This document shows positions 31,045 through 36,722 of a DNA stretch of 49,312 nt, one piece after another; the stretch's first letter is position 1; every line of letters starts with the position of its first letter. The stretch covers positions 1 through 49,312 of the forward strand of contig DBWJ01000046.1 in assembly GCA_002308955.1 (NCBI GenBank), written 5' to 3'. The position numbers and the translations under genes were made by a program. The notes beneath the pieces are model-generated. The model was not told where the DNA came from and searched no databases. It saw nothing but the letters and a program-made list of their open reading frames with translations. This DNA is from Lachnoclostridium sp. UBA1241. Its GTDB lineage: Bacteria > Bacillota > Clostridia > Lachnospirales > Lachnospiraceae.

Positions 31045-32072
31045 TTATATTTTCCTTTATTCGAAGAGCTGTCATGCAGGGCGTGCCGCTTCTGTACGGT
31101 TCCACCGGTGAGATCATCACCGAGAAGTCAGGTCACCTGAACCTCGGTATTCCCGGTATCATGTATATGGGCGCCATCGGCGGCGTTATCGGCGGCTTCT
31201 TCTTTGAACAGACCGGCGCCGATTTCAGTCATTGGTACATCCGTGTCCTCGCAATCCTAATCGCGCTGTTTTGCTCGCTGTTCTTCTCGTGCCTGATGGG
31301 ACTTCTGTACTGCTTCCTGACCGTATCGCTTCGCGCGAACCAGAACGTTACCGGTCTTGCCCTCACCACCTTCGGTGTCGGCGTCGGCAACTTCTTCGGC
31401 GGCTCACTGATCAAGATTTCCCACGCGGACGTTCCGACCGTTACGCTTACGAAGACAAGCAGCTGTTTCGCAAAGCATCTGCCGTTCGTGGATACGGTGA
31501 ATAAGATGGCTGCTGATAACAAATGCCCGAAGATTCTTGCGGAACTCTGCCAGACAATCTTCTCCTACAGTACGCTTGCCTATCTGTCCATCGTGATCGC
31601 GCTGATTGCGGCGCACGTTCTGATGAAGACACGCGTCGGCCTGACGCTTCGTGCCGTCGGTGAAGACCCGGCGACCGCGGATGCTGCCGGCATCAACGTA
31701 AACCGCTATAAGTACGTTGCCACCTGTCTCGGCAGCATGATTGCCGGCCTCGGCGGGCTTTACTACATCATGGACTACGCCTCGGGCGTATGGTCGAGCG
31801 ACGGTTTCGGCGACCGCGGATGGCTTTCCGTGGCACTCGTAATCTTCTCCCTCTGGAGACCGAATCTGGCCATCATCGGATCGTTCCTGTTCGGCGGTCT
31901 GTACATCGTGCACAACTACATCGGAGGCCTCTCCATGCAGGCTCAGGAGCTCTTCAAGATGTCTCCCTACGTGATGACGCTTCTCGTTCTGATCTTCGTA
32001 AGCATCAAGGAAAAGAAGGAAGCTCTCCCGCCCGCGCACCTCGGACTGAACTACTTCCGCGAAGAGCGGTAA
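31041..32072 (+). CDS. ABC transporter permease (BMP/nucleoside system)
   Basis: Polytopic protein with a 4-nt overlap with the preceding permease gene. GHLNLGIPGIMYMGA motif. Confidence 0.85.
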   Translation: MIIFSFIRRAVMQGVPLLYGSTGEIITEKSGHLNLGIPGIMYMGAIGGVIGGFFFEQTGADFSHWYIRVLAILIALFCSLFFSCLMGLLYCFLTVSLRANQNVTGLALTTFGVGVGNFFGGSLIKISHADVPTVTLTKTSSCFAKHLPFVDTVNKMAADNKCPKILAELCQTIFSYSTLAYLSIVIALIAAHVLMKTRVGLTLRAVGEDPATADAAGINVNRYKYVATCLGSMIAGLGGLYYIMDYASGVWSSDGFGDRGWLSVALVIFSLWRPNLAIIGSFLFGGLYIVHNYIGGLSMQAQELFKMSPYVMTLLVLIFVSIKEKKEALPPAHLGLNYFREER

Positions 32073-32089
32073 AACACCAAACATAGCAA

Positions 32090-32120
32090 GAGCCGTCGCT
32101 GCTGCGACGGCTCCTTTTTT
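32090..32120. terminator. Rho-independent terminator between convergent operons
   Basis: GAGCCGUCGC-UGCU-GCGACGGCUC followed by CUUUUUU on the + strand. A U-rich stretch is also present on the - strand side. Confidence 0.75.
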
Positions 32121-32135
32121 GCCCGTTGGCCCATA

Positions 32136-32975
32136 CTATAGTTCTTCGCTCCTTAATTGCTCCAACCGTTCACTCGGAGAGTCCCACTCTTCGGGCAGTT
32201 CCTCCTCGTGAGCAATCAGGACGGAATAGGCGCTTTCAAGCGTCTCCCGGATGGATTCCCGCTCGTCCTCGTCATCACTTTCATGAAAGGACTGCTCGGC
32301 GATGTTAATCAGATCGTACAGAACCGAATATTTTTCCACAGAAAACGGCTCCTGAGGGGTGGTTGTGGCATCCGGCGAATCGCCTTGCGCTGCTTTCTCC
32401 GAAGAGGAATCCGTCGGTACTTTCGCACTCTCCCGAATCTCCCGCGCCCGGTACTGTTTATAAGTCAGTCTTCGTACAAGGAAAAGGACCAGACAGCCGA
32501 TTCCTGCGAAAAGAACCGGGTTTTTAAGATCAGCAGGCAGGTCCGAAAGGAACGAGAGCTGCTCCGGCAGATCGGGCTGCAGGGCAATGACGCATTCCAT
32601 TCCGAACAACACTAGGATTACAAGAAGCAGCAGAACATCCACCGGTCCGAAGCGCCGCCTCGTAAAATCCACCCTGGGCATCAATTCGACCTGCAAGGAT
32701 TCCGCAAGCTCGATCGCGCCCTTGGTGAAGGTGGAATTGGTCATGACGATGGCGCGGTCGCATCCGTAATAGGTGGTGGCTGCATATACCTCCTGCACGG
32801 CCTTGTTTCCGACCGGCGACCGGTAGTATTTGCATTGCACCGCGCACTTTTCCTTCTTCCGAAAAGCAATGATGTCCGCTCCCTGATCCCTGCTCGCCTG
32901 CGTCACGGAAACGTCCCGAAAGCCCTTCTTTCGAAGGTACTCCGCACAGGCCAGTTCATATTCATATCCGTTCAT
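32136..32975 (-). CDS. Mrr-type restriction endonuclease domain protein with two transmembrane helices and an acidic C-terminal region
   Basis: Mrr_cat-like N-terminus: YELACAEYLRKKGF...DQGADIIAF...AVQCKYYRSPVGNKAVQEVYAA...AIVMTNSTFTKGAIELAE. TM helices VDVLLLLVILVLFGMECVIAL and VLFAGIGCLVLFLV. Only a 2-nt gap to the upstream rSAM gene. Confidence 0.75.
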   Translation of the reverse strand: MNGYEYELACAEYLRKKGFRDVSVTQASRDQGADIIAFRKKEKCAVQCKYYRSPVGNKAVQEVYAATTYYGCDRAIVMTNSTFTKGAIELAESLQVELMPRVDFTRRRFGPVDVLLLLVILVLFGMECVIALQPDLPEQLSFLSDLPADLKNPVLFAGIGCLVLFLVRRLTYKQYRAREIRESAKVPTDSSSEKAAQGDSPDATTTPQEPFSVEKYSVLYDLINIAEQSFHESDDEDERESIRETLESAYSVLIAHEEELPEEWDSPSERLEQLRSEEL

Positions 32976-32977
32976 AT

Positions 32978-34018
32978 TTACTTATCCATAGCGCTTGCGC
33001 ACCGGGGTGCCTCATACAGCTTCCCGTGCACGAAGAAATTGTAGGAACGGCAGCCGCCCGCGCAATACGCACCGTGTTTGCAGTCGGCGCAGGGCCCGGT
33101 CAGCATGCTTCTTTTGAATTTGCGGTTATACGAAAAGCCGTCCGGATTCTCCCAGATCTCGCGAAGGCTCTTCTTTCGGAGGTTGCCCTCGTTGAACCGC
33201 TCATCGTACATCGATTCGCAGCCGCGTACATTTCCGATGCTGTCGATTCCGACGGCGGAAATCCCGGCGCGGCATCCCGCGAAGACGGCCTGTCCGCTCA
33301 TGTTTCCGCGGATGCTGCCCTCCTCCGGCGTAAAATACCCGATATTGTCGGCGACTCCCAGAAGGAACGGCGCCGTACGCATATTCGTATCGACAAATCG
33401 GATGACCTCCCGCGGGTCAAACGCGTAATCCACGCCGTTGTTCGCCGCATTTCCCATCGGCGAACATGCCTGCAGTTGCCAGGCGAAAATCGGGTACTGT
33501 TTCAAGGTTTCGTATAGTTCCGGAAGCTTAGGGACATTCTCCCGGTTCAGCGTACTGATCACGGAAACCGGAATTCCGCTCTCGCCGAGCACCTGAATCG
33601 CCCGGATGGCGCGGTCGTAACTGCCCTCCTGGCGGTACTTATCGTGTACCTCGCGGGGTCCGTCCAAAGAAACCGAAACGGATTCGATTCCGACTTCCCG
33701 AAGGTCATCAATCAGGTTATCCGAAAAGAGAAATCCGTTGGTGATGATGTTGACGCGGACGCCGTTCTTCGTAAGGCGCGCGGTAATTTCCTTCCAGTCC
33801 TTCCGCATGAACACTTCGCCGCCGATCAGCGATACGCGGCGGCAGCCGAGTTCCGCAAGCCAGTCCGCGACATTCAGGCACTCCTCTGTCGAGAGTTCTC
33901 CTTCACGGGCGCGTCCGCCGCGGGAACCGCAGTACTTGCATGAGAAGCAGCAGGCAAGCGTAATTTCCCACACGCATCTTCTAAGCTTAAACTTCATAAT
34001 CCGGTGTCGGCTCAGCAA
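32978..34018 (-). CDS. Radical SAM / SPASM domain protein
   Basis: CxxxCxxC cluster in ITLACCFSCKYCGS. C-terminal SPASM pattern: FAGCRAGISAVGIDSIGNVRGC...GNLRKKSLREIW...CADCKHGAYCAGGCRS. The start is either TTG 34018 (GGAGGGGG upstream, overlapping the preceding stop) or ATG 33997. Confidence 0.85.
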   Translation of the reverse strand: MLSRHRIMKFKLRRCVWEITLACCFSCKYCGSRGGRAREGELSTEECLNVADWLAELGCRRVSLIGGEVFMRKDWKEITARLTKNGVRVNIITNGFLFSDNLIDDLREVGIESVSVSLDGPREVHDKYRQEGSYDRAIRAIQVLGESGIPVSVISTLNRENVPKLPELYETLKQYPIFAWQLQACSPMGNAANNGVDYAFDPREVIRFVDTNMRTAPFLLGVADNIGYFTPEEGSIRGNMSGQAVFAGCRAGISAVGIDSIGNVRGCESMYDERFNEGNLRKKSLREIWENPDGFSYNRKFKRSMLTGPCADCKHGAYCAGGCRSYNFFVHGKLYEAPRCASAMDK

Positions 34019-34509
34019 AGCGCCGTGCCGCCCCCTCCGTTCAGAATGTTTTTATAGCCGCAATAAGGGCAGAAACGGGCGGTTTTCGGGAATTTCCCGC
34101 CGCACATCGAGCAGAAGCACGTATCCTCGCTCGGTTCGGGATCAGCCTCCGGCTCCGCAGGAGTCCTCGGCCCGCCGTTGAAAGGATTCGGAAACGGCGG
34201 TGCCGCATATACAAGCATCATCGAAGGTCCGTTTCCGTTGAGGCCGGACATCTGCTGCGGGCCTGCCGGACCTGCATAAACCGTCATCATGGAATTCATC
34301 ATCGGGTTCATTCCGGGACCTGCATAGGCCATCAGCATCGAAGGATCGTCAAACCGCGGATTCCTCCGCCACTTTTCATTCTCCTCCTCAAGCTCTACAA
34401 CGTTATCCGGATATTCCTTCTTCTCCTCAGCGCTCACTTCTTCCGTGTTCACTTCTTCGGTGTTCACTTCCTCAGTGTTCACTTCTTCATTCCTCAATTC
34501 ATCGTCCAT
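34012..34509 (-). CDS. Acidic repeat protein with a C-terminal zinc ribbon
   Basis: ATG 34509 is preceded by AAAGGAGAAGG. The longer ORF to 34728 would overlap rsmA. Features: EEVNT repeats, three S-M-x-x-x-Y-A-G/A-P motifs, and CSMCG..CPYCG. Confidence 0.6.
   Translation of the reverse strand: MDDELRNEEVNTEEVNTEEVNTEEVSAEEKKEYPDNVVELEEENEKWRRNPRFDDPSMLMAYAGPGMNPMMNSMMTVYAGPAGPQQMSGLNGNGPSMMLVYAAPPFPNPFNGGPRTPAEPEADPEPSEDTCFCSMCGGKFPKTARFCPYCGYKNILNGGGGTALC
34430..34489. repeat. Four in-frame 15-nt tandem repeats inside the Zn-ribbon protein gene
   Basis: Units are gcgctcacttcttcc, gtgttcacttcttcg, gtgttcacttcctca and gtgttcacttcttca. They encode (E)EVNT/EVSA repeats on the minus strand. 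Confidence 0.85.
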
Positions 34510-34583
34510 AGCCTTCTCCTTTCTTTCCGGGGCTGCTTCCCGGCTGTTTCGGCAGCTTTCCGTTTGTATGGCATTTTCCGTTC

Positions 34584-35450
34584 TTATCGCATCTTCCCGA
34601 GCGCGTCCGCAAGCCGCGCAAAATCTGACAGCGTCAGCGTTTCTCCCCGGACCGTCGGAGAGAAGCCGAGCTCGGCAAGCGCTTCCGTCACCTGCTCCTT
34701 CGTAACCGTAAGCTCCTGCGCGTTGCAAAGTCCGTTCACAAGAGTCTTGCGGCGCTGGTTGAACGACGCGCGGATCAGGGCGAACATCAGCTTTTCATCC
34801 TGCACCGAAACCGGCGGCTTATCGTGCAGGGTGAGCCGTATCACCGCCGAGCCGACATTCGGGCGGGGCATGAAACAGTTCGGCGGGACATTGGCCGCCA
34901 GGTAGGGCTCCGCGTAGTACTGCACGGCCAAAGAAAGCGCGCCGTAGTCCTTCGTTCCGGGACCGGTTTCCATCCGCTCCGCAACCTCTTTCTGGACCAT
35001 AACCGTGATGCTTACGACCGGAAGCCTTTCTTCGAGAAGCTTCATAAGAATCGGCGTCGTAATGTAATACGGCAGGTTGGCAACCACCTTGACCGGGCGG
35101 AAGCCGTATTCGAACAGAACGTCTCTGAGGTCAAGCTTCAGAATGTCCTCGTTGATGACGCGGAGGTTTTTATAATCCTTACAGGTATCGCCGGTCAGGA
35201 TCGGGATCAGGTTCCGGTCAATCTCGACAGCGATCACGTCGCCGGCCTCCTCGCAGAGGCGCTGCGTCATCGTGCCGATGCCGGGACCGATCTCCAGAAC
35301 CACGTCGTCCTTCGTAATCTCCGCGGCCGCAATGATCTTGTCCACCACGTGCCCGTCAATCAGAAAGTTCTGTCCGAATTTCTTCTGAAAATTGAATTGA
35401 TACCGCTGTAAAACCGCTATGGTTTCCTTCGGATCGCTTAAATATGCCAT
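34584..35450 (-). CDS. rsmA: 16S rRNA (adenine1518/1519-N6)-dimethyltransferase
   Basis: KKFGQNFLIDGHVVDKII, VLEIGPGIGTMT and ANLPYYITTPI motifs. Confidence 0.93.
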   Translation of the reverse strand: MAYLSDPKETIAVLQRYQFNFQKKFGQNFLIDGHVVDKIIAAAEITKDDVVLEIGPGIGTMTQRLCEEAGDVIAVEIDRNLIPILTGDTCKDYKNLRVINEDILKLDLRDVLFEYGFRPVKVVANLPYYITTPILMKLLEERLPVVSITVMVQKEVAERMETGPGTKDYGALSLAVQYYAEPYLAANVPPNCFMPRPNVGSAVIRLTLHDKPPVSVQDEKLMFALIRASFNQRRKTLVNGLCNAQELTVTKEQVTEALAELGFSPTVRGETLTLSDFARLADALGKMR

Positions 35451-35516: not shown

Positions 35517-36722
35517 TCATTTATCCCTGAGCCCGATGAAATAATCCATGATAAGCCGCGTGCCGTCGTCGTAATAATTCTCCTGCGAAACTTTCTCCTG
35601 CACGTCCCAGCCGGTGTCCGCAACCTCCGAAGCCGTATCCGCGTATTGCTCAAGCGGATGGTCGTCGGCTGCATAGGCCTCCTTGGCTGCCAGGAAGGCA
35701 TCCGTTTCGTCAAGATAGACCTGGTCGAAATCCGGCATGAACTCCGCGTCTTCTGCCTGGTACTCATCATACAGACGAGTGCCCTCTTCAAGACCGAATT
35801 CGCTCACCAGCGCATTGCACATTGCGGATTCGAGGGCATAATAGATATCGTCACAGCCGGAATACGCCGTAATCGGGTCATCGGAAAGGACGCAGGAAAG
35901 ATCTCCCATGAATTCCCCTTCGTTTTCCTTGTAGAACCCTTTCGAATGCGCGGCCTCGTGGGCAATCATCGTGTACCAGTACAGATTATCCACGTACTTG
36001 TTGTAAGTAATCTCCATCGTGTACGGGTAGGTGTATCCGCCGATATACATCCAATCGAGAACGTCCGAGCATTTTGCGGCCTTCGGCTGCCCGTAGAAAC
36101 CTTTAAGCCGCGGATACCGGTCGGAAAGGTTCTTTAGAGCGCGTACAACCTGCTCATACGCGGTTTTCTTATCGGGATAGATAATTCTTCCGTCCGCGTC
36201 TCTCGGAAGCGCCTCCTGGGCGGCACGGAAACGCGCGCCCACCAGATTCCTTACGTAGCGGTACTCCTCTGCCGTATAACCGCGCCGTTCCGGCTCCTCG
36301 CCGACGACGTGGCCGTTATAGGGAATCCACCAGTGGAACAGATAGGTCCAAAGGCACAAGGCGAAAACCGCCAGGAACACCTTCATGTAATTCCGATAGA
36401 ATGCGCTCTTCTTCCGCTCCTTCTTCCGAACCTTCCGCACAAGCCATCGCACCCCGTGAACAATCGAAAGGATCACGGTCACCACCACGAACACGAAGGT
36501 GAGATACATAACGATTTCTCCGACGGCAAATGGGAAGACATCGAACACTCTCGCGACAACACCGTGCAAAACCGGATGGATATGGTTCACGTACCAGTCA
36601 TCGAAAGACTTGATAAAGCTTAACACAAAGAACACCGCCCAGACCGCCGCCACGACGAGCAATATCCGCCAGTACAGGGTGAGCCGATGTTCCTTTGTTA
36701 CATTTTCCGCTTTTTTACTCAT
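35517..36722 (-). CDS. DUF3810 family membrane protein with an HExxH metalloprotease-like motif
   Basis: N-terminal TM helices. IAHEAAHSKGF contains HEAAH. Size and layout are typical of DUF3810. Confidence 0.75.
   Translation of the reverse strand: MSKKAENVTKEHRLTLYWRILLVVAAVWAVFFVLSFIKSFDDWYVNHIHPVLHGVVARVFDVFPFAVGEIVMYLTFVFVVVTVILSIVHGVRWLVRKVRKKERKKSAFYRNYMKVFLAVFALCLWTYLFHWWIPYNGHVVGEEPERRGYTAEEYRYVRNLVGARFRAAQEALPRDADGRIIYPDKKTAYEQVVRALKNLSDRYPRLKGFYGQPKAAKCSDVLDWMYIGGYTYPYTMEITYNKYVDNLYWYTMIAHEAAHSKGFYKENEGEFMGDLSCVLSDDPITAYSGCDDIYYALESAMCNALVSEFGLEEGTRLYDEYQAEDAEFMPDFDQVYLDETDAFLAAKEAYAADDHPLEQYADTASEVADTGWDVQEKVSQENYYDDGTRLIMDYFIGLRDK

What the first reader, a model, noticed from the sequence alone, without database searches (positions are those of the whole stretch)
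32136..34509. Tightly coupled trio: Zn-ribbon repeat protein, radical SAM/SPASM enzyme, membrane-anchored Mrr-type nuclease domain
Seen in sequence:
- Three minus-strand genes are packed with a 7-nt overlap (34012-34018) and a 2-nt gap (32975/32978).
- No terminator appears until 32090..32120.
- The trio is wedged between housekeeping rsmA and the convergent nucleoside ABC operon.
- The middle gene has a CxxxCxxC cluster (CCFSCKYC) and a full SPASM Cys pattern.

Established knowledge: SPASM enzymes usually modify a peptide or protein encoded next door.

The upstream gene is repeat-rich and Cys-rich at its C-terminus. The downstream gene joins a PD-(D/E)xK Mrr_cat domain (GADII...VQCK) to two TM helices and an acidic tail. 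I do not recognise this combination as any described RiPP cluster or defence system.

Inference: it could be either a protein-maturation or RiPP-like module whose product acts with a membrane nuclease, or a novel defence or abortive-infection module.
Basis: partly seen in the sequence, partly recalled or inferred. Interest (0 to 1): 0.72.

Follow-up and report, generated by a model that had tools for sequence, protein, structure and literature searches.

The report
Radical SAM enzyme with VYAGP-repeat substrate
Two of the three genes form a conserved enzyme–substrate pair in rumen and gut Lachnospiraceae, a radical SAM enzyme related to the backbone-cutting "spliceases" next to a protein carrying repeated VYAGP motifs, while the third gene, a membrane nuclease, is a lineage-specific neighbour.

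Summary
The three minus-strand genes are real and tightly packed, but they are not a conserved trio.

**The conserved unit is a pair.** In 80 species-level genomes carrying a 66-88% identical radical SAM/SPASM enzyme, the ORF just upstream carries at least one Y[AGMN][GAS]P motif in 77 and at least two in 74. The motif consensus is MxxVYAGPxx(M/F). These proteins also share:
- a single KYP(E/D)RA-type motif (75 of 80 proteins);
- a C-terminal zinc ribbon (63 of 80 loci).

**The Mrr_cat/2-TM gene is not part of it.** It follows the enzyme only in the window's own sub-lineage. Its more distant homologues sit behind TPR and DUF4037 genes, with no radical SAM gene present.

**The enzyme is a distant splicease relative.** Its best curated match is TIGR04103, the PlpX tyramine-splicease family, at 249 bits against a cut-off of 725. 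Relatives at 32-47% identity are repeatedly adjacent to, or fused with, XYG-repeat substrates. The nearest outgroup pairs with VY(F/Y)GP or VY(A/F)SP proteins.

**Most likely reading.** This is a two-component, splicease-like maturase that modifies each VYxGP repeat. It departs from the canonical XYG motif, so the chemistry may differ. A defence-system reading is not supported.

**Verdict.** New variant of a known kind; moderately interesting.

The parts
34012..34509 (-). Gene for the presumed substrate. It is a 165-aa acidic protein, rich in Pro, Gly and Met, with no hydrophobic segment. It carries one YP motif, three VYAGP-type repeats and a C-terminal zinc ribbon.
   Evidence: ORF. An identical protein is called by NCBI (P0121). 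No Kyte-Doolittle segment reaches 1.6. Equivalent ORFs lie upstream of the enzyme in 77 of 80 loci.
34393..34422 (-). KKEYPDNVVE, the single-copy 'YP' motif. The family consensus is (K/P)(K/P)YP(E/D/Q)(R/N)(A/F/Y)x(E/D). It is a candidate docking or leader-like element.
   Evidence: Present in 75 of 80 substrate proteins, usually N-terminal to the repeats. It also occurs in outgroup substrates L093-L095. Coordinates checked.
34306..34338 (-). Repeat 1, MLMAYAGPGMN.
   Evidence: The logo comes from 290 motif instances.
34258..34290 (-). Repeat 2, MMTVYAGPAGP.
34189..34221 (-). Repeat 3, MMLVYAAPPFP. This is the Y-A-A-P variant.
34051..34116 (-). C-terminal zinc ribbon, FCSMCGGKFPKTARFCPYCGYK.
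   Evidence: Pfam Zn_Ribbon_1 scores 4.5e-4 in the window protein and passes the gathering score in homologues. A CxxC..CxxC pattern is present in 63 of 80 loci.
34434..34489 (-). 15-nt tandem repeat, 3.7 copies, encoding (EEVNT)n in the N-terminal acidic region. It is lineage-specific.
   Evidence: Close homologues range from 157 to 184 aa.
32978..33997 (-). Radical SAM/SPASM enzyme of 339 aa (alternative TTG start at 34018). It has no N-terminal RRE domain.
   Evidence: Pfam Radical_SAM and SPASM. Best NCBIfam match is TIGR04103 at 249 bits against 725. There are 262 relatives in GTDB species genomes. The family forms a tight clade, with a drop to 36-47% identity outside it.
33929..33952 (-). 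CX3CX2C radical SAM cluster motif within CCFSCKYC.
   Evidence: C16, C20 and C23 are invariant.
32999..33274 (-). SPASM region holding the seven auxiliary-cluster cysteines: C242, C260, C303, C306, C312, C316 and C333.
   Evidence: Pfam SPASM covers residues 249-314.
32136..32975 (-). Mrr_cat nuclease domain, two TM helices and an acidic tail. It is probably co-transcribed here but is a lineage-specific neighbour, not part of the conserved module.
   Evidence: Pfam Mrr_cat 1.9e-27. D30, D34 and Q47-x-K49 are invariant. TM segments and tail charge. Distribution.
32088..32115 (.). Bidirectional terminator-like hairpin between the Mrr gene and the convergent ABC permease gene.

Best explanation
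The functional unit is a two-gene cassette, not a trio.

The substrate (34012-34509) is a soluble, largely low-complexity protein. It carries one KYP(E/D)RA-type motif, 2-12 copies (three here) of MxxVYAGPxx(M/F), and usually one or two C-terminal zinc ribbons.

The enzyme (32978-33997) is a radical SAM/SPASM protein with all three Fe-S cluster cysteine sets and no RRE domain. It is translationally coupled to the substrate gene. It belongs to the wider clade that contains the tyramine spliceases (PlpX, TIGR04103).

Inferred mechanism:
1. The enzyme docks on the substrate, possibly through the YP motif or an N-terminal amphipathic segment.
2. It uses a 5'-deoxyadenosyl radical to modify the backbone at the invariant Tyr of each repeat in turn.
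3. The most likely chemistry is splicease-type excision of a tyramine equivalent. This would turn each Val-Tyr into an alpha-keto-beta-valine (ketoamide) joined to Ala-Gly-Pro, with a loss of 135 Da per site.

What is shown: gene linkage, motif conservation, and enzyme kinship with XYG-associated enzymes.
What is inferred: that the repeats are the modification sites, the chemistry, and any role of the product (for example as a ketoamide protease inhibitor).

The Mrr_cat/TM gene downstream is an accessory gene. It occupies a variable slot between the cassette and the ABC operon in this lineage only.
For: Linkage:
- In 80 species-level loci, the ORF ending next to the enzyme start carries at least one motif in 77 and at least two in 74. 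Gaps are often -4 or -1 nt.
- No other neighbour within 4 kb recurs in more than 6 loci.
- Outside that position, motif-rich ORFs are absent from 806 kb, apart from one tandem duplicate.

Motif:
- From 290 instances: V(-1) 83%, A(+1) 84%, G(+2) 91%, M(-4) 57%. Y at 0 and P at +3 are fixed by the search pattern, which also restricts +2 to G or A.
- The rest of the protein is hypervariable. A homologue search found only 13 hits, while the enzyme stays 66-88% identical. This is the usual pattern for a substrate and its enzyme.

Enzyme kinship:
- The best NCBIfam hits are TIGR04103, then TIGR03913, then TIGR04133, all peptide or protein maturases.
- A true TIGR04103 member (L132, 820 bits) sits beside a Nif11-leader precursor with LYG repeats.
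- Many relatives at 35-41% identity are fused to (D/E)YG(V/I)xP repeats. Others are adjacent to XYG-repeat ORFs.
- The nearest outgroup, at 43-44% identity, pairs with proteins carrying VYFGP, VYYGP or VY(A/F)SP, plus a YP motif.
- In a rough NJ tree the VYAGP clade is monophyletic and nested among XYG-associated enzymes.

Literature: spliceases excise tyramine at XYG. Many are two-component systems, and in one of these (RhaXA) an alpha-helix of the precursor leader is predicted to bind the enzyme (PMC11414181, PMC10533398, PMC11002830, PMC11626197).
Against: - The motif is Y-A-G, not the canonical Y-G. Only about 3% of instances have Gly directly after Tyr.
- In the nearest outgroup the +1 residue is F or Y. 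The Tyr-to-Gly register has therefore shifted, and the chemistry may not be tyramine excision.
- The enzyme scores far below the TIGR04103 cut-off (249 against 725). It also lacks that family's C-terminal ~70 residues, since the match covers model positions 3-342 of 412.
- No experiment and no complex model was possible. The AlphaFold2 model of the enzyme alone had mean pLDDT 61.
- No protease or exporter is conserved nearby. The fate of the product is unknown.
- The 2-nt (window) or overlapping (L089) junction with the Mrr gene leaves room for a lineage-specific functional link.
Confidence: 0.62

Rival explanations
1. Same enzyme-substrate pair and same sites, but a different radical SAM chemistry at VYxGP. 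Examples are a Tyr-centred cross-link, epimerisation, or a side-chain or backbone oxidation, rather than tyramine excision.
For: - The motif departs from XYG at the position considered diagnostic.
- The clade is a separate branch, far below the splicease family cut-off.
- Conserved Met at -4 and Met/Phe at +6 have no stated role in splicing.
- SPASM enzymes as a group catalyse many different reactions. One search lists sactipeptide, WgkB and mycofactocin maturases as weaker hits.
Against: - Every relative with an identifiable partner pairs with a Tyr motif followed within two residues by Gly or Ser, and usually Pro at +3. This suggests one conserved reaction.
- Y-A or Y-M occasionally replaces Y-G at equivalent repeat positions in XYG-type substrates.
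Confidence: 0.28
2. The three genes form one system. The modified protein would regulate or act with the membrane-anchored Mrr nuclease, as a defence or abortive-infection module.
For: - The genes are tightly packed, with no terminator before 32088-32115.
- The Mrr gene still abuts the enzyme gene in homologues at 87% and 60% Mrr identity, with a 4-nt overlap in L089.
- The Mrr_cat domain matches nuclease domains of ZorD and of type IV restriction enzymes in PADLOC.
Against: - The Mrr gene is absent after the enzyme in 79 of the 80 species loci. This includes the syntenic genome L005, where nothing lies between the enzyme and the ABC operon.
- More distant full-length Mrr homologues lie behind TPR and DUF4037 genes, without the cassette.
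- There is no system-level PADLOC match.
- The flanks are housekeeping, GC content is uniform, and there is no similarity to phage or plasmid DNA.
Confidence: 0.05
3. The enzyme serves an unrelated pathway, such as AhbD/NirJ-like tetrapyrrole chemistry, sulfatase maturation or a cofactor. The repeat protein would be only a neighbour or a non-substrate partner.
For: Weaker NCBIfam hits to heme b synthase AhbD (152 bits), NirJ, mycofactocin MftC and sulfatase maturase. The closest solved structures by sequence are SkfB, a cytosylglucuronate decarboxylase, PqqE and anSME.
Against: - All these scores are below the peptide-maturase hits and far below their cut-offs.
- No tetrapyrrole, sulfatase or cofactor genes are conserved nearby.
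- The only conserved neighbour is the repeat protein.
- Repeat number varies from 1 to 9 by the pattern count, as expected of substrates.
Confidence: 0.05

Closest known systems
Tyramine spliceases and spliceotides (PlpX/PlpA of Pleurocapsa, RhaX/RhaA of Rheinheimera; NCBIfam TIGR04103 / IPR026482)
   Same: - The enzyme is a radical SAM/SPASM protein whose best curated match is TIGR04103.
- The substrate gene lies directly upstream.
- The substrate carries a repeated, Tyr-centred short motif with Pro at +3 (PlpA cores LYGLP and GYGLP in PMC10533398; here YAGP).
- It is a two-component layout without an RRE protein, as in the type II and later spliceotide systems (PMC11414181).
- Relatives of the window enzyme are adjacent to Nif11-leader XYG precursors or fused to XYG repeats.
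   Different: - The motif is V-Y-A-G-P, so Gly is at +2 rather than +1.
- The substrate is a 120-400-aa zinc-ribbon protein with no Nif11 or NHLP leader.
- The enzyme scores 249 bits against a cut-off of 725 and lacks the family's C-terminal extension.
- No PlpY-type partner is present.
- The chemistry is untested.
GDL-motif peptide-associated radical SAM/SPASM maturase (TIGR03913) with DUF1843 peptides
   Same: It is the second-best curated match, at 220 bits. In Azospirillum its partner peptides carry a Tyr motif near the N-terminus, MLYGG, with a paralogue that has PMYMA. A non-Gly residue after Tyr therefore occurs there too.
   Different: The cut-off of 592 bits is not reached. The partner here has no GDL motif or DUF1843 domain, carries multiple repeats, and comes from a different taxon.
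TIGR04133 radical SAM/SPASM protein. From my memory, this is the Bacteroidota enzyme paired with a putative lipoprotein, TIGR04134.
   Same: It is the third-best curated match, at 160 bits. The pairing of the enzyme with a low-complexity partner protein is recalled from memory and was not tested here.
   Different: The cut-off of 425 bits is not reached. The window substrate has no lipoprotein signal. No TIGR04134 hit was found for the substrate.
Anaerobic sulfatase-maturating enzyme (anSME)
   Same: It is a SPASM enzyme without an RRE that recognises a short linear motif inside a full-length protein. It is detectable by sequence among solved structures (4k37, E = 4e-9).
   Different: Only 73 bits against a cut-off of 349 for TIGR03942. 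No sulfatase gene is nearby. The target motif and residue differ.
Mrr / type IV restriction endonuclease catalytic domain (Pfam PF04471). This applies to the third gene only.
   Same: The N-terminal 105 residues match Mrr_cat at 96 bits, with D..D..QxK invariant.
   Different: There is no N-terminal DNA-binding (winged-helix) domain. Instead the protein has two TM helices and an acidic tail. It has no conserved partnership with the radical SAM cassette.

Membership tests
Radical SAM / SPASM superfamily | CX3CX2C motif for the SAM-binding [4Fe-4S] cluster | tested here: met
   C16-x3-C20-x2-C23 (CCFSCKYC, 33929-33952) is invariant in 20 homologues. Pfam Radical_SAM scores 101.5 bits against 29.5.
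Radical SAM / SPASM superfamily | C-terminal SPASM domain with seven cysteines for two auxiliary clusters | tested here: met
   C242, C260, C303, C306, C312, C316 and C333 are invariant. Pfam SPASM scores 32.4 bits against 21.5.
TIGR04103 / PlpX-type (type I) tyramine splicease | Score at or above the curated family cut-off of 725 bits | tested here: not met
   249 bits, covering model positions 3-342 of 412. As a positive control, the L132 enzyme scores 820 bits.
TIGR04103 / PlpX-type (type I) tyramine splicease | Precursor with a Nif11 or NHLP leader | tested here: not met
   There is no Nif11 hit for the window protein or for 10 homologues. The L132 precursor does hit TIGR03798.
TIGR04103 / PlpX-type (type I) tyramine splicease | Separate PlpY-like RRE protein | tested here: not met
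   No third gene is conserved within 4 kb in 80 loci.
Spliceotide systems in the broad sense (radical SAM splicease plus XYG-containing precursor) | Enzyme homologous to characterised spliceases | tested here: met
   The best curated match is TIGR04103. In a rough NJ tree without support values, the enzyme nests among enzymes adjacent to or fused with XYG repeats.
Spliceotide systems in the broad sense (radical SAM splicease plus XYG-containing precursor) | X-Tyr-Gly splice motif in the substrate | tested here: not met
   Position +1 after Tyr is Ala in 84%, Met in 7% and Gly in only 3% of cases. Gly sits at +2 in 91%.
Spliceotide systems in the broad sense (radical SAM splicease plus XYG-containing precursor) | [quoted passage not shown] | not testable with these tools
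   This needs co-expression and mass spectrometry.
   TIGR03942 scores 72.9 bits against 349. The top score for any family is 249 bits and none reaches its cut-off. No sulfatase or six-Cys peptide is conserved nearby.
Known or candidate anti-phage defence systems (PADLOC-DB 2.0) | Match to system-specific protein models, with components conserved together | tested here: not met
   Hits are only at domain level: the ZorD nuclease domain and generic radical SAM similarity to pVip. The repeat protein gives none. The Mrr gene follows the enzyme in only 1 of the 80 species loci.
Mrr_cat (PF04471) nuclease domain, third gene | Pfam gathering score and the PD-(D/E/Q)xK-type catalytic residues | tested here: met
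   96.1 bits against 21. D30, D34 and Q47-C-K49 are invariant in 11 homologues. Nuclease activity itself was not tested.

The most novel reading that the evidence does not exclude
The VYx(G/S)P-associated enzymes may carry out a radical SAM reaction that is not canonical tyramine splicing. This group is the Lachnospiraceae VYAGP clade plus its VYFGP, VYYGP and VY(A/F)SP sister clade. The Tyr-to-Gly register is shifted by one residue. The result would be an undescribed backbone or side-chain modification installed many times over in a zinc-ribbon protein. That protein is encoded in up to about 260 species-level rumen and gut genomes (262 enzyme relatives; the pairing was checked in the best 80).
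Probability: 0.28. Interest if true: 0.8.

Novelty: new variant of a known kind. Interest (0 to 1): 0.55.

Why it matters
Spliceases are of interest because they write beta-amino acid and ketoamide residues into ribosomal products. These residues are protease-inhibitor pharmacophores and handles for protein labelling.

If this clade also splices, three things would follow:
- It would extend the known recognition rule from X-Y-G to V-Y-x-G-P.
- It would add a naturally multi-site protein substrate.
- It would point to abundant, uncharacterised modified proteins in rumen Lachnospiraceae.

According to a review (PMC10849128), the published genome-mining screen ranked candidates by the frequency of YG motifs next to rSAM-SPASM genes. 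A YAG clade known mainly from metagenome-assembled genomes could therefore have been missed. I could not verify this.

If the clade does not splice, it marks a new reaction in a well-studied enzyme superfamily.

Either way, the analysis removes a tempting but unsupported 'new defence system' call.

Tried and rejected
- Homologue search with the repeat protein: only 13 hits, all close relatives but one. The protein is too variable and low in complexity for this tool. Its family was recovered instead from ORFs next to the enzyme.
- Literature search for VYAGP, YAGP and YGxP motifs: nothing relevant. A combined search on radical SAM, SPASM, zinc ribbon and Lachnospiraceae found nothing relevant. 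One badly framed search was wasted.
- The key genome-mining paper (Scott et al. 2022, Chem) is not held. I could not check whether this clade is among its 939 predicted systems.
- NCBIfam and Pfam on the window substrate and 10 homologues: no model covers the repeat region, only zinc-ribbon hits.
- AlphaFold2 of the enzyme with a 20-sequence alignment: mean pLDDT 61, with the cluster-binding regions below 50. It was not used for fold search.
- Promoter scan: no sigma-70-like site in 31900-34800. Whether the cassette has its own promoter or is read through from rsmA is open.
- Megablast of the whole finding against phages and plasmids: no match.
- Mrr protein against viral contigs: two loci with similarity limited to the nuclease domain. 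The one examined, L085, has a different architecture, with the TM segment N-terminal.
- Three-residue cyclophane (triceptide) idea for Y-A-G: rejected from general knowledge, not tested. The third residue is Gly and has no beta-carbon.
- Glycyl-radical-enzyme activation idea: rejected from general knowledge, not tested. The motif does not resemble RVxG(F/W/Y), and the enzyme is of the SPASM type.


Full report
**1. What is in the window**

Three minus-strand ORFs occupy 32136-34509.

- The first (34012-34509, 165 aa) is identical to a protein called in an NCBI assembly on a contig of exactly the window's length (P0121).
- The second is a radical SAM/SPASM enzyme. Logan and NCBI gene calls for this protein or its 90%-identity cluster start it at ATG 33997 (339 aa). 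This leaves a 14-nt gap after the first gene.
- The third gene (32136-32975, 279 aa) starts 2 nt after the enzyme's stop codon.

A 12-bp hairpin at 32088-32115 is the first terminator-like site. It is shared with the convergent ABC operon.

Pfam gives these scores:

| Domain | E-value |
|---|---|
| Radical_SAM | 7.5e-29 |
| SPASM | 1.2e-7 |
| Mrr_cat | 1.9e-27 |
| Zinc ribbon (first protein) | 4.5e-4, below the gathering score |

The CX3CX2C cysteines and all seven SPASM cysteines are invariant in 20 homologues. The Mrr protein has two hydrophobic segments and an acidic tail. The first protein has no hydrophobic segment.

**2. Which genes travel together**

A scan of one genome per GTDB species found 262 relatives of the enzyme. 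The best 80 are rumen and gut Lachnospiraceae MAGs at 66-88% identity, and I fetched these with flanks.

The Mrr gene is not conserved with the enzyme:
- tblastn with the window's neighbours found an Mrr homologue after the enzyme in only one locus, L004, the closest relative.
- The gene downstream of the enzyme differs in almost every locus.
- Clustering all neighbours within 4 kb found no family present in more than 6 loci, apart from the upstream protein.

The upstream protein is conserved:
- The ORF ending next to the enzyme's start has at least one Y[AGMN][GAS]P motif in 77 loci and at least two in 74.
- It has a CxxC..CxxC zinc ribbon in 63 loci.
- The junction is often a 4-nt or 1-nt overlap.

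As a specificity control, I searched 806 kb of these loci for stop-free ORFs with at least two motifs. They occur only in that position, except for one tandem second copy in L017. In the 49-kb window it is the only such ORF.

**3. Anatomy of the upstream protein**

A logo from 290 motif instances gives:

| Position | Residue | Frequency |
|---|---|---|
| -4 | M | 57% |
| -1 | V | 83% |
| 0 | Y | fixed by the search pattern |
| +1 | A | 84% |
| +2 | G | 91% (pattern allows G or A only) |
| +3 | P | fixed by the search pattern |
| +6 | M or F | 46% |

About half of all tyrosines in these proteins lie in the motif.

A second, single-copy motif, (K/P)(K/P)YP(E/D/Q)(R/N)(A/F/Y)x(E/D), occurs in 75 of 80 proteins. 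It usually lies N-terminal to the repeats and is often preceded by an amphipathic MKNFFKKLFGKK segment.

Between these elements the sequences are acidic, low in complexity and hypervariable. A homologue search recovered only 13 proteins, whereas the enzyme is highly conserved. No Pfam or NCBIfam model covers the repeat region.

The window protein has:
- KKEYPDNVVE;
- three repeats, MLMAYAGPGMN, MMTVYAGPAGP and MMLVYAAPPFP;
- one zinc ribbon;
- a lineage-specific (EEVNT)n tract encoded by a 15-nt tandem repeat.

**4. What the enzyme is related to**

No NCBIfam cut-off is reached. The best matches are all peptide or protein maturases:

| Family | Score (bits) | Cut-off (bits) |
|---|---|---|
| TIGR04103 | 249 | 725 |
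| TIGR03913 | 220 | 592 |
| TIGR04133 | 160 | 425 |
| Sulfatase maturase (TIGR03942) | 73 | 349 |

TIGR04103 / IPR026482 is the family of PlpX, the founding tyramine splicease (PMC11002830). [quoted passage not shown]

An exhaustive profile search found 547 representatives at E <= 1e-30. The window's clade is tight, and identity then drops to 36-47%.

Many relatives at 35-41% identity are natural fusions. The enzyme is followed by a TM or lipobox-like segment and then repeats of (D/E)YG(V/I)xP.

A metagenome scan seeded with the nearest non-fused outgroups returned 80 loci:
- Many have adjacent XYG-repeat ORFs. Two of these are Nif11-leader precursors.
- One enzyme, L132, scores 820 bits on TIGR04103, and its neighbour passes the Nif11 leader model. 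This ties the family to XYG substrates within my own data.

The loci closest to the window enzyme (43-44% identity) are the most informative:
- L093 and L095 have small upstream proteins with VYFGP.
- L094 has VYYGP. Each of these three also has a YP(D/S) motif.
- L097 has a kinase-like protein whose tail carries VIYASP and TVYFSP and ends 8 nt before the enzyme.

In a rough neighbour-joining tree without support values:
- the VYAGP clade is monophyletic;
- its sister is the VY(F/Y)GP / VY(A/F)SP group;
- both are nested among XYG-associated enzymes.

**5. Interpretation**

Three lines of evidence agree: the linkage, the enzyme-versus-partner conservation pattern, and the behaviour of relatives. 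Together they make an enzyme-substrate relationship by far the best reading, with the VYxGP repeats as the sites.

The system resembles the two-component spliceotide systems, which lack a PlpY protein. In one of these (RhaXA), an alpha-helix of the precursor leader is predicted to occupy the enzyme site that the PlpY protein fills in three-component systems (PMC11414181). The YP motif or the N-terminal amphipathic segment is a candidate for that role. This is inference.

The chemistry cannot be read from sequence.
- Canonical spliceases need Gly directly after Tyr. Here Gly is one residue further on. In the sister clade the intervening residue is aromatic, so the conserved Tyr is the first one.
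- Both motif types share Tyr and a Pro three residues later, with one Gly between them: Y-G-hydrophobic-P against Y-(A/F/Y/M)-G-P.
- Y-A or Y-M occasionally replaces Y-G at equivalent positions in XYG-type partners.

I therefore favour splicease-type tyramine excision, but I give a substantial share to a different reaction.

No protease or exporter is conserved nearby, so the modified product may act as a protein inside the cell. A role as a ketoamide protease inhibitor is only an analogy to characterised spliceotides.

**6. The Mrr gene**

The N-terminal domain is a well-conserved Mrr_cat domain, with D30, D34 and Q47-x-K49 invariant. It is followed by variable TM segments and a tail with a conserved helix.

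Where its homologues sit:
- Homologues at 87% and 60% identity still follow the enzyme, in the same rsmA-to-ABC synteny.
- Full-length homologues at 46% and 37% identity follow TPR and DUF4037 genes, with no radical SAM gene.

In syntenic relatives, the slot between the enzyme and the ABC operon is empty (L005) or holds other genes (L007, L009, L014, L018).

PADLOC gives only domain-level hits. There is no phage or plasmid DNA similarity and no compositional anomaly.

The gene is best seen as an accessory gene in a variable slot, probably co-transcribed here. A lineage-specific functional link cannot be excluded, but nothing beyond adjacency supports it.

**7. Novelty**

The kind of system, a splicease-like radical SAM/SPASM enzyme with a Tyr-motif substrate, is known.

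The variant appears undescribed in what I could search: a V-Y-x-G-P register on multi-repeat zinc-ribbon proteins, in a large and mostly uncultured Lachnospiraceae clade.
- No paper mentions the motif.
- No curated model covers the repeat region.
- According to a review, the published mining screen used YG frequency next to rSAM-SPASM genes in UniProt reference proteomes (PMC10849128). That would tend to miss this clade.
- The primary paper is not held, so prior listing cannot be ruled out.

**8. Verdict**

- Observation: confirmed.
- Interpretation: partly supported. The maturation pair holds; the trio and the defence reading do not.
- Classification: new variant of a known kind.
- Interest: moderate (0.55). 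This would rise to about 0.8 if the chemistry proves different from tyramine splicing.

Noticed in passing
window 34434-34489: A 15-nt tandem repeat (3.7 copies) encodes (EEVNT)n in the N-terminal acidic part of the repeat protein. Close homologues range from 157 to 184 aa, so copy number probably varies between strains.
   Followed up: partly
L007 4786-5973: In this horse-faeces Lachnospiraceae MAG, the rsmA reading frame continues in frame into the VYAAP/zinc-ribbon protein, giving a 395-aa ORF. This is either a natural RsmA-substrate fusion or a lost stop codon or assembly error.
   Followed up: no
P0153, P0156, P0159, P0182, P0186, P0187, P0195, P0202, P0222, P0254: Relatives of the enzyme at 35-41% identity are single polypeptides. 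A radical SAM/SPASM domain is followed by a TM or lipobox-like segment and then 4-10 repeats of (D/E)YG(V/I)xP, some with Cys-rich spacers. Enzyme and presumed substrate are fused across a membrane anchor.
   Followed up: partly
L097 2112-3002: A protein-kinase-like ORF ends 8 nt before a radical SAM/SPASM gene that is 44% identical to the window enzyme. Its C-terminal tail carries VIYASP and TVYFSP. The motif may therefore be appended to an otherwise ordinary enzyme.
   Followed up: partly
L090 2129-5164 and L092 2236-5044: Distant full-length homologues of the Mrr_cat/TM protein (46% and 37% identity) lie in a conserved order: TPR protein, DUF4037 protein, Mrr_cat/TM protein. This may be a separate three-gene unit.
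   Followed up: no
L173 2707-2913 (Agathobacter rectalis DFI.5.28, NZ_CP143948.1): An unannotated small ORF ending ...LFGPVMYGTGVRM lies just upstream of a 384-aa radical SAM/SPASM gene (38% identity) and an MFS transporter. It looks like an unannotated spliceotide-type precursor in a cultured human-gut Lachnospiraceae. The 'plasmid' record also carries fusA and tuf.
   Followed up: partly
L174 1525-2240 (Azospirillum oryzae plasmid): The DUF1843 'GDL-motif' peptides lie next to a TIGR03913 maturase. One has MLYGGAM near the N-terminus and a paralogue has PMYMATM at the same place. A non-Gly residue after the Tyr therefore also occurs in that family.
   Followed up: no
L017 4402-5001: A second substrate-like ORF with five motifs sits in tandem upstream of the one adjacent to the enzyme.
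   Followed up: no
L150 2228-2839: An ORF with repeats of KYMPP, LYMPP, KYMAP, KYSAPP and EYMAP lies next to a radical SAM/SPASM relative. This is another non-YG Tyr motif.
   Followed up: no
P0137 (731 aa) and P0150 (938 aa): P0137 has two complete radical SAM/SPASM modules in one polypeptide. P0150 has a SPASM-type module, a TPR-like middle region and a second radical SAM module.
   Followed up: no
window 35517-36722: A 401-aa membrane protein (DUF3810 in the homologous locus L086) lies between the TatD and rsmA genes. The order TatD, DUF3810, rsmA, cassette is conserved in the closest relatives.
   Followed up: no
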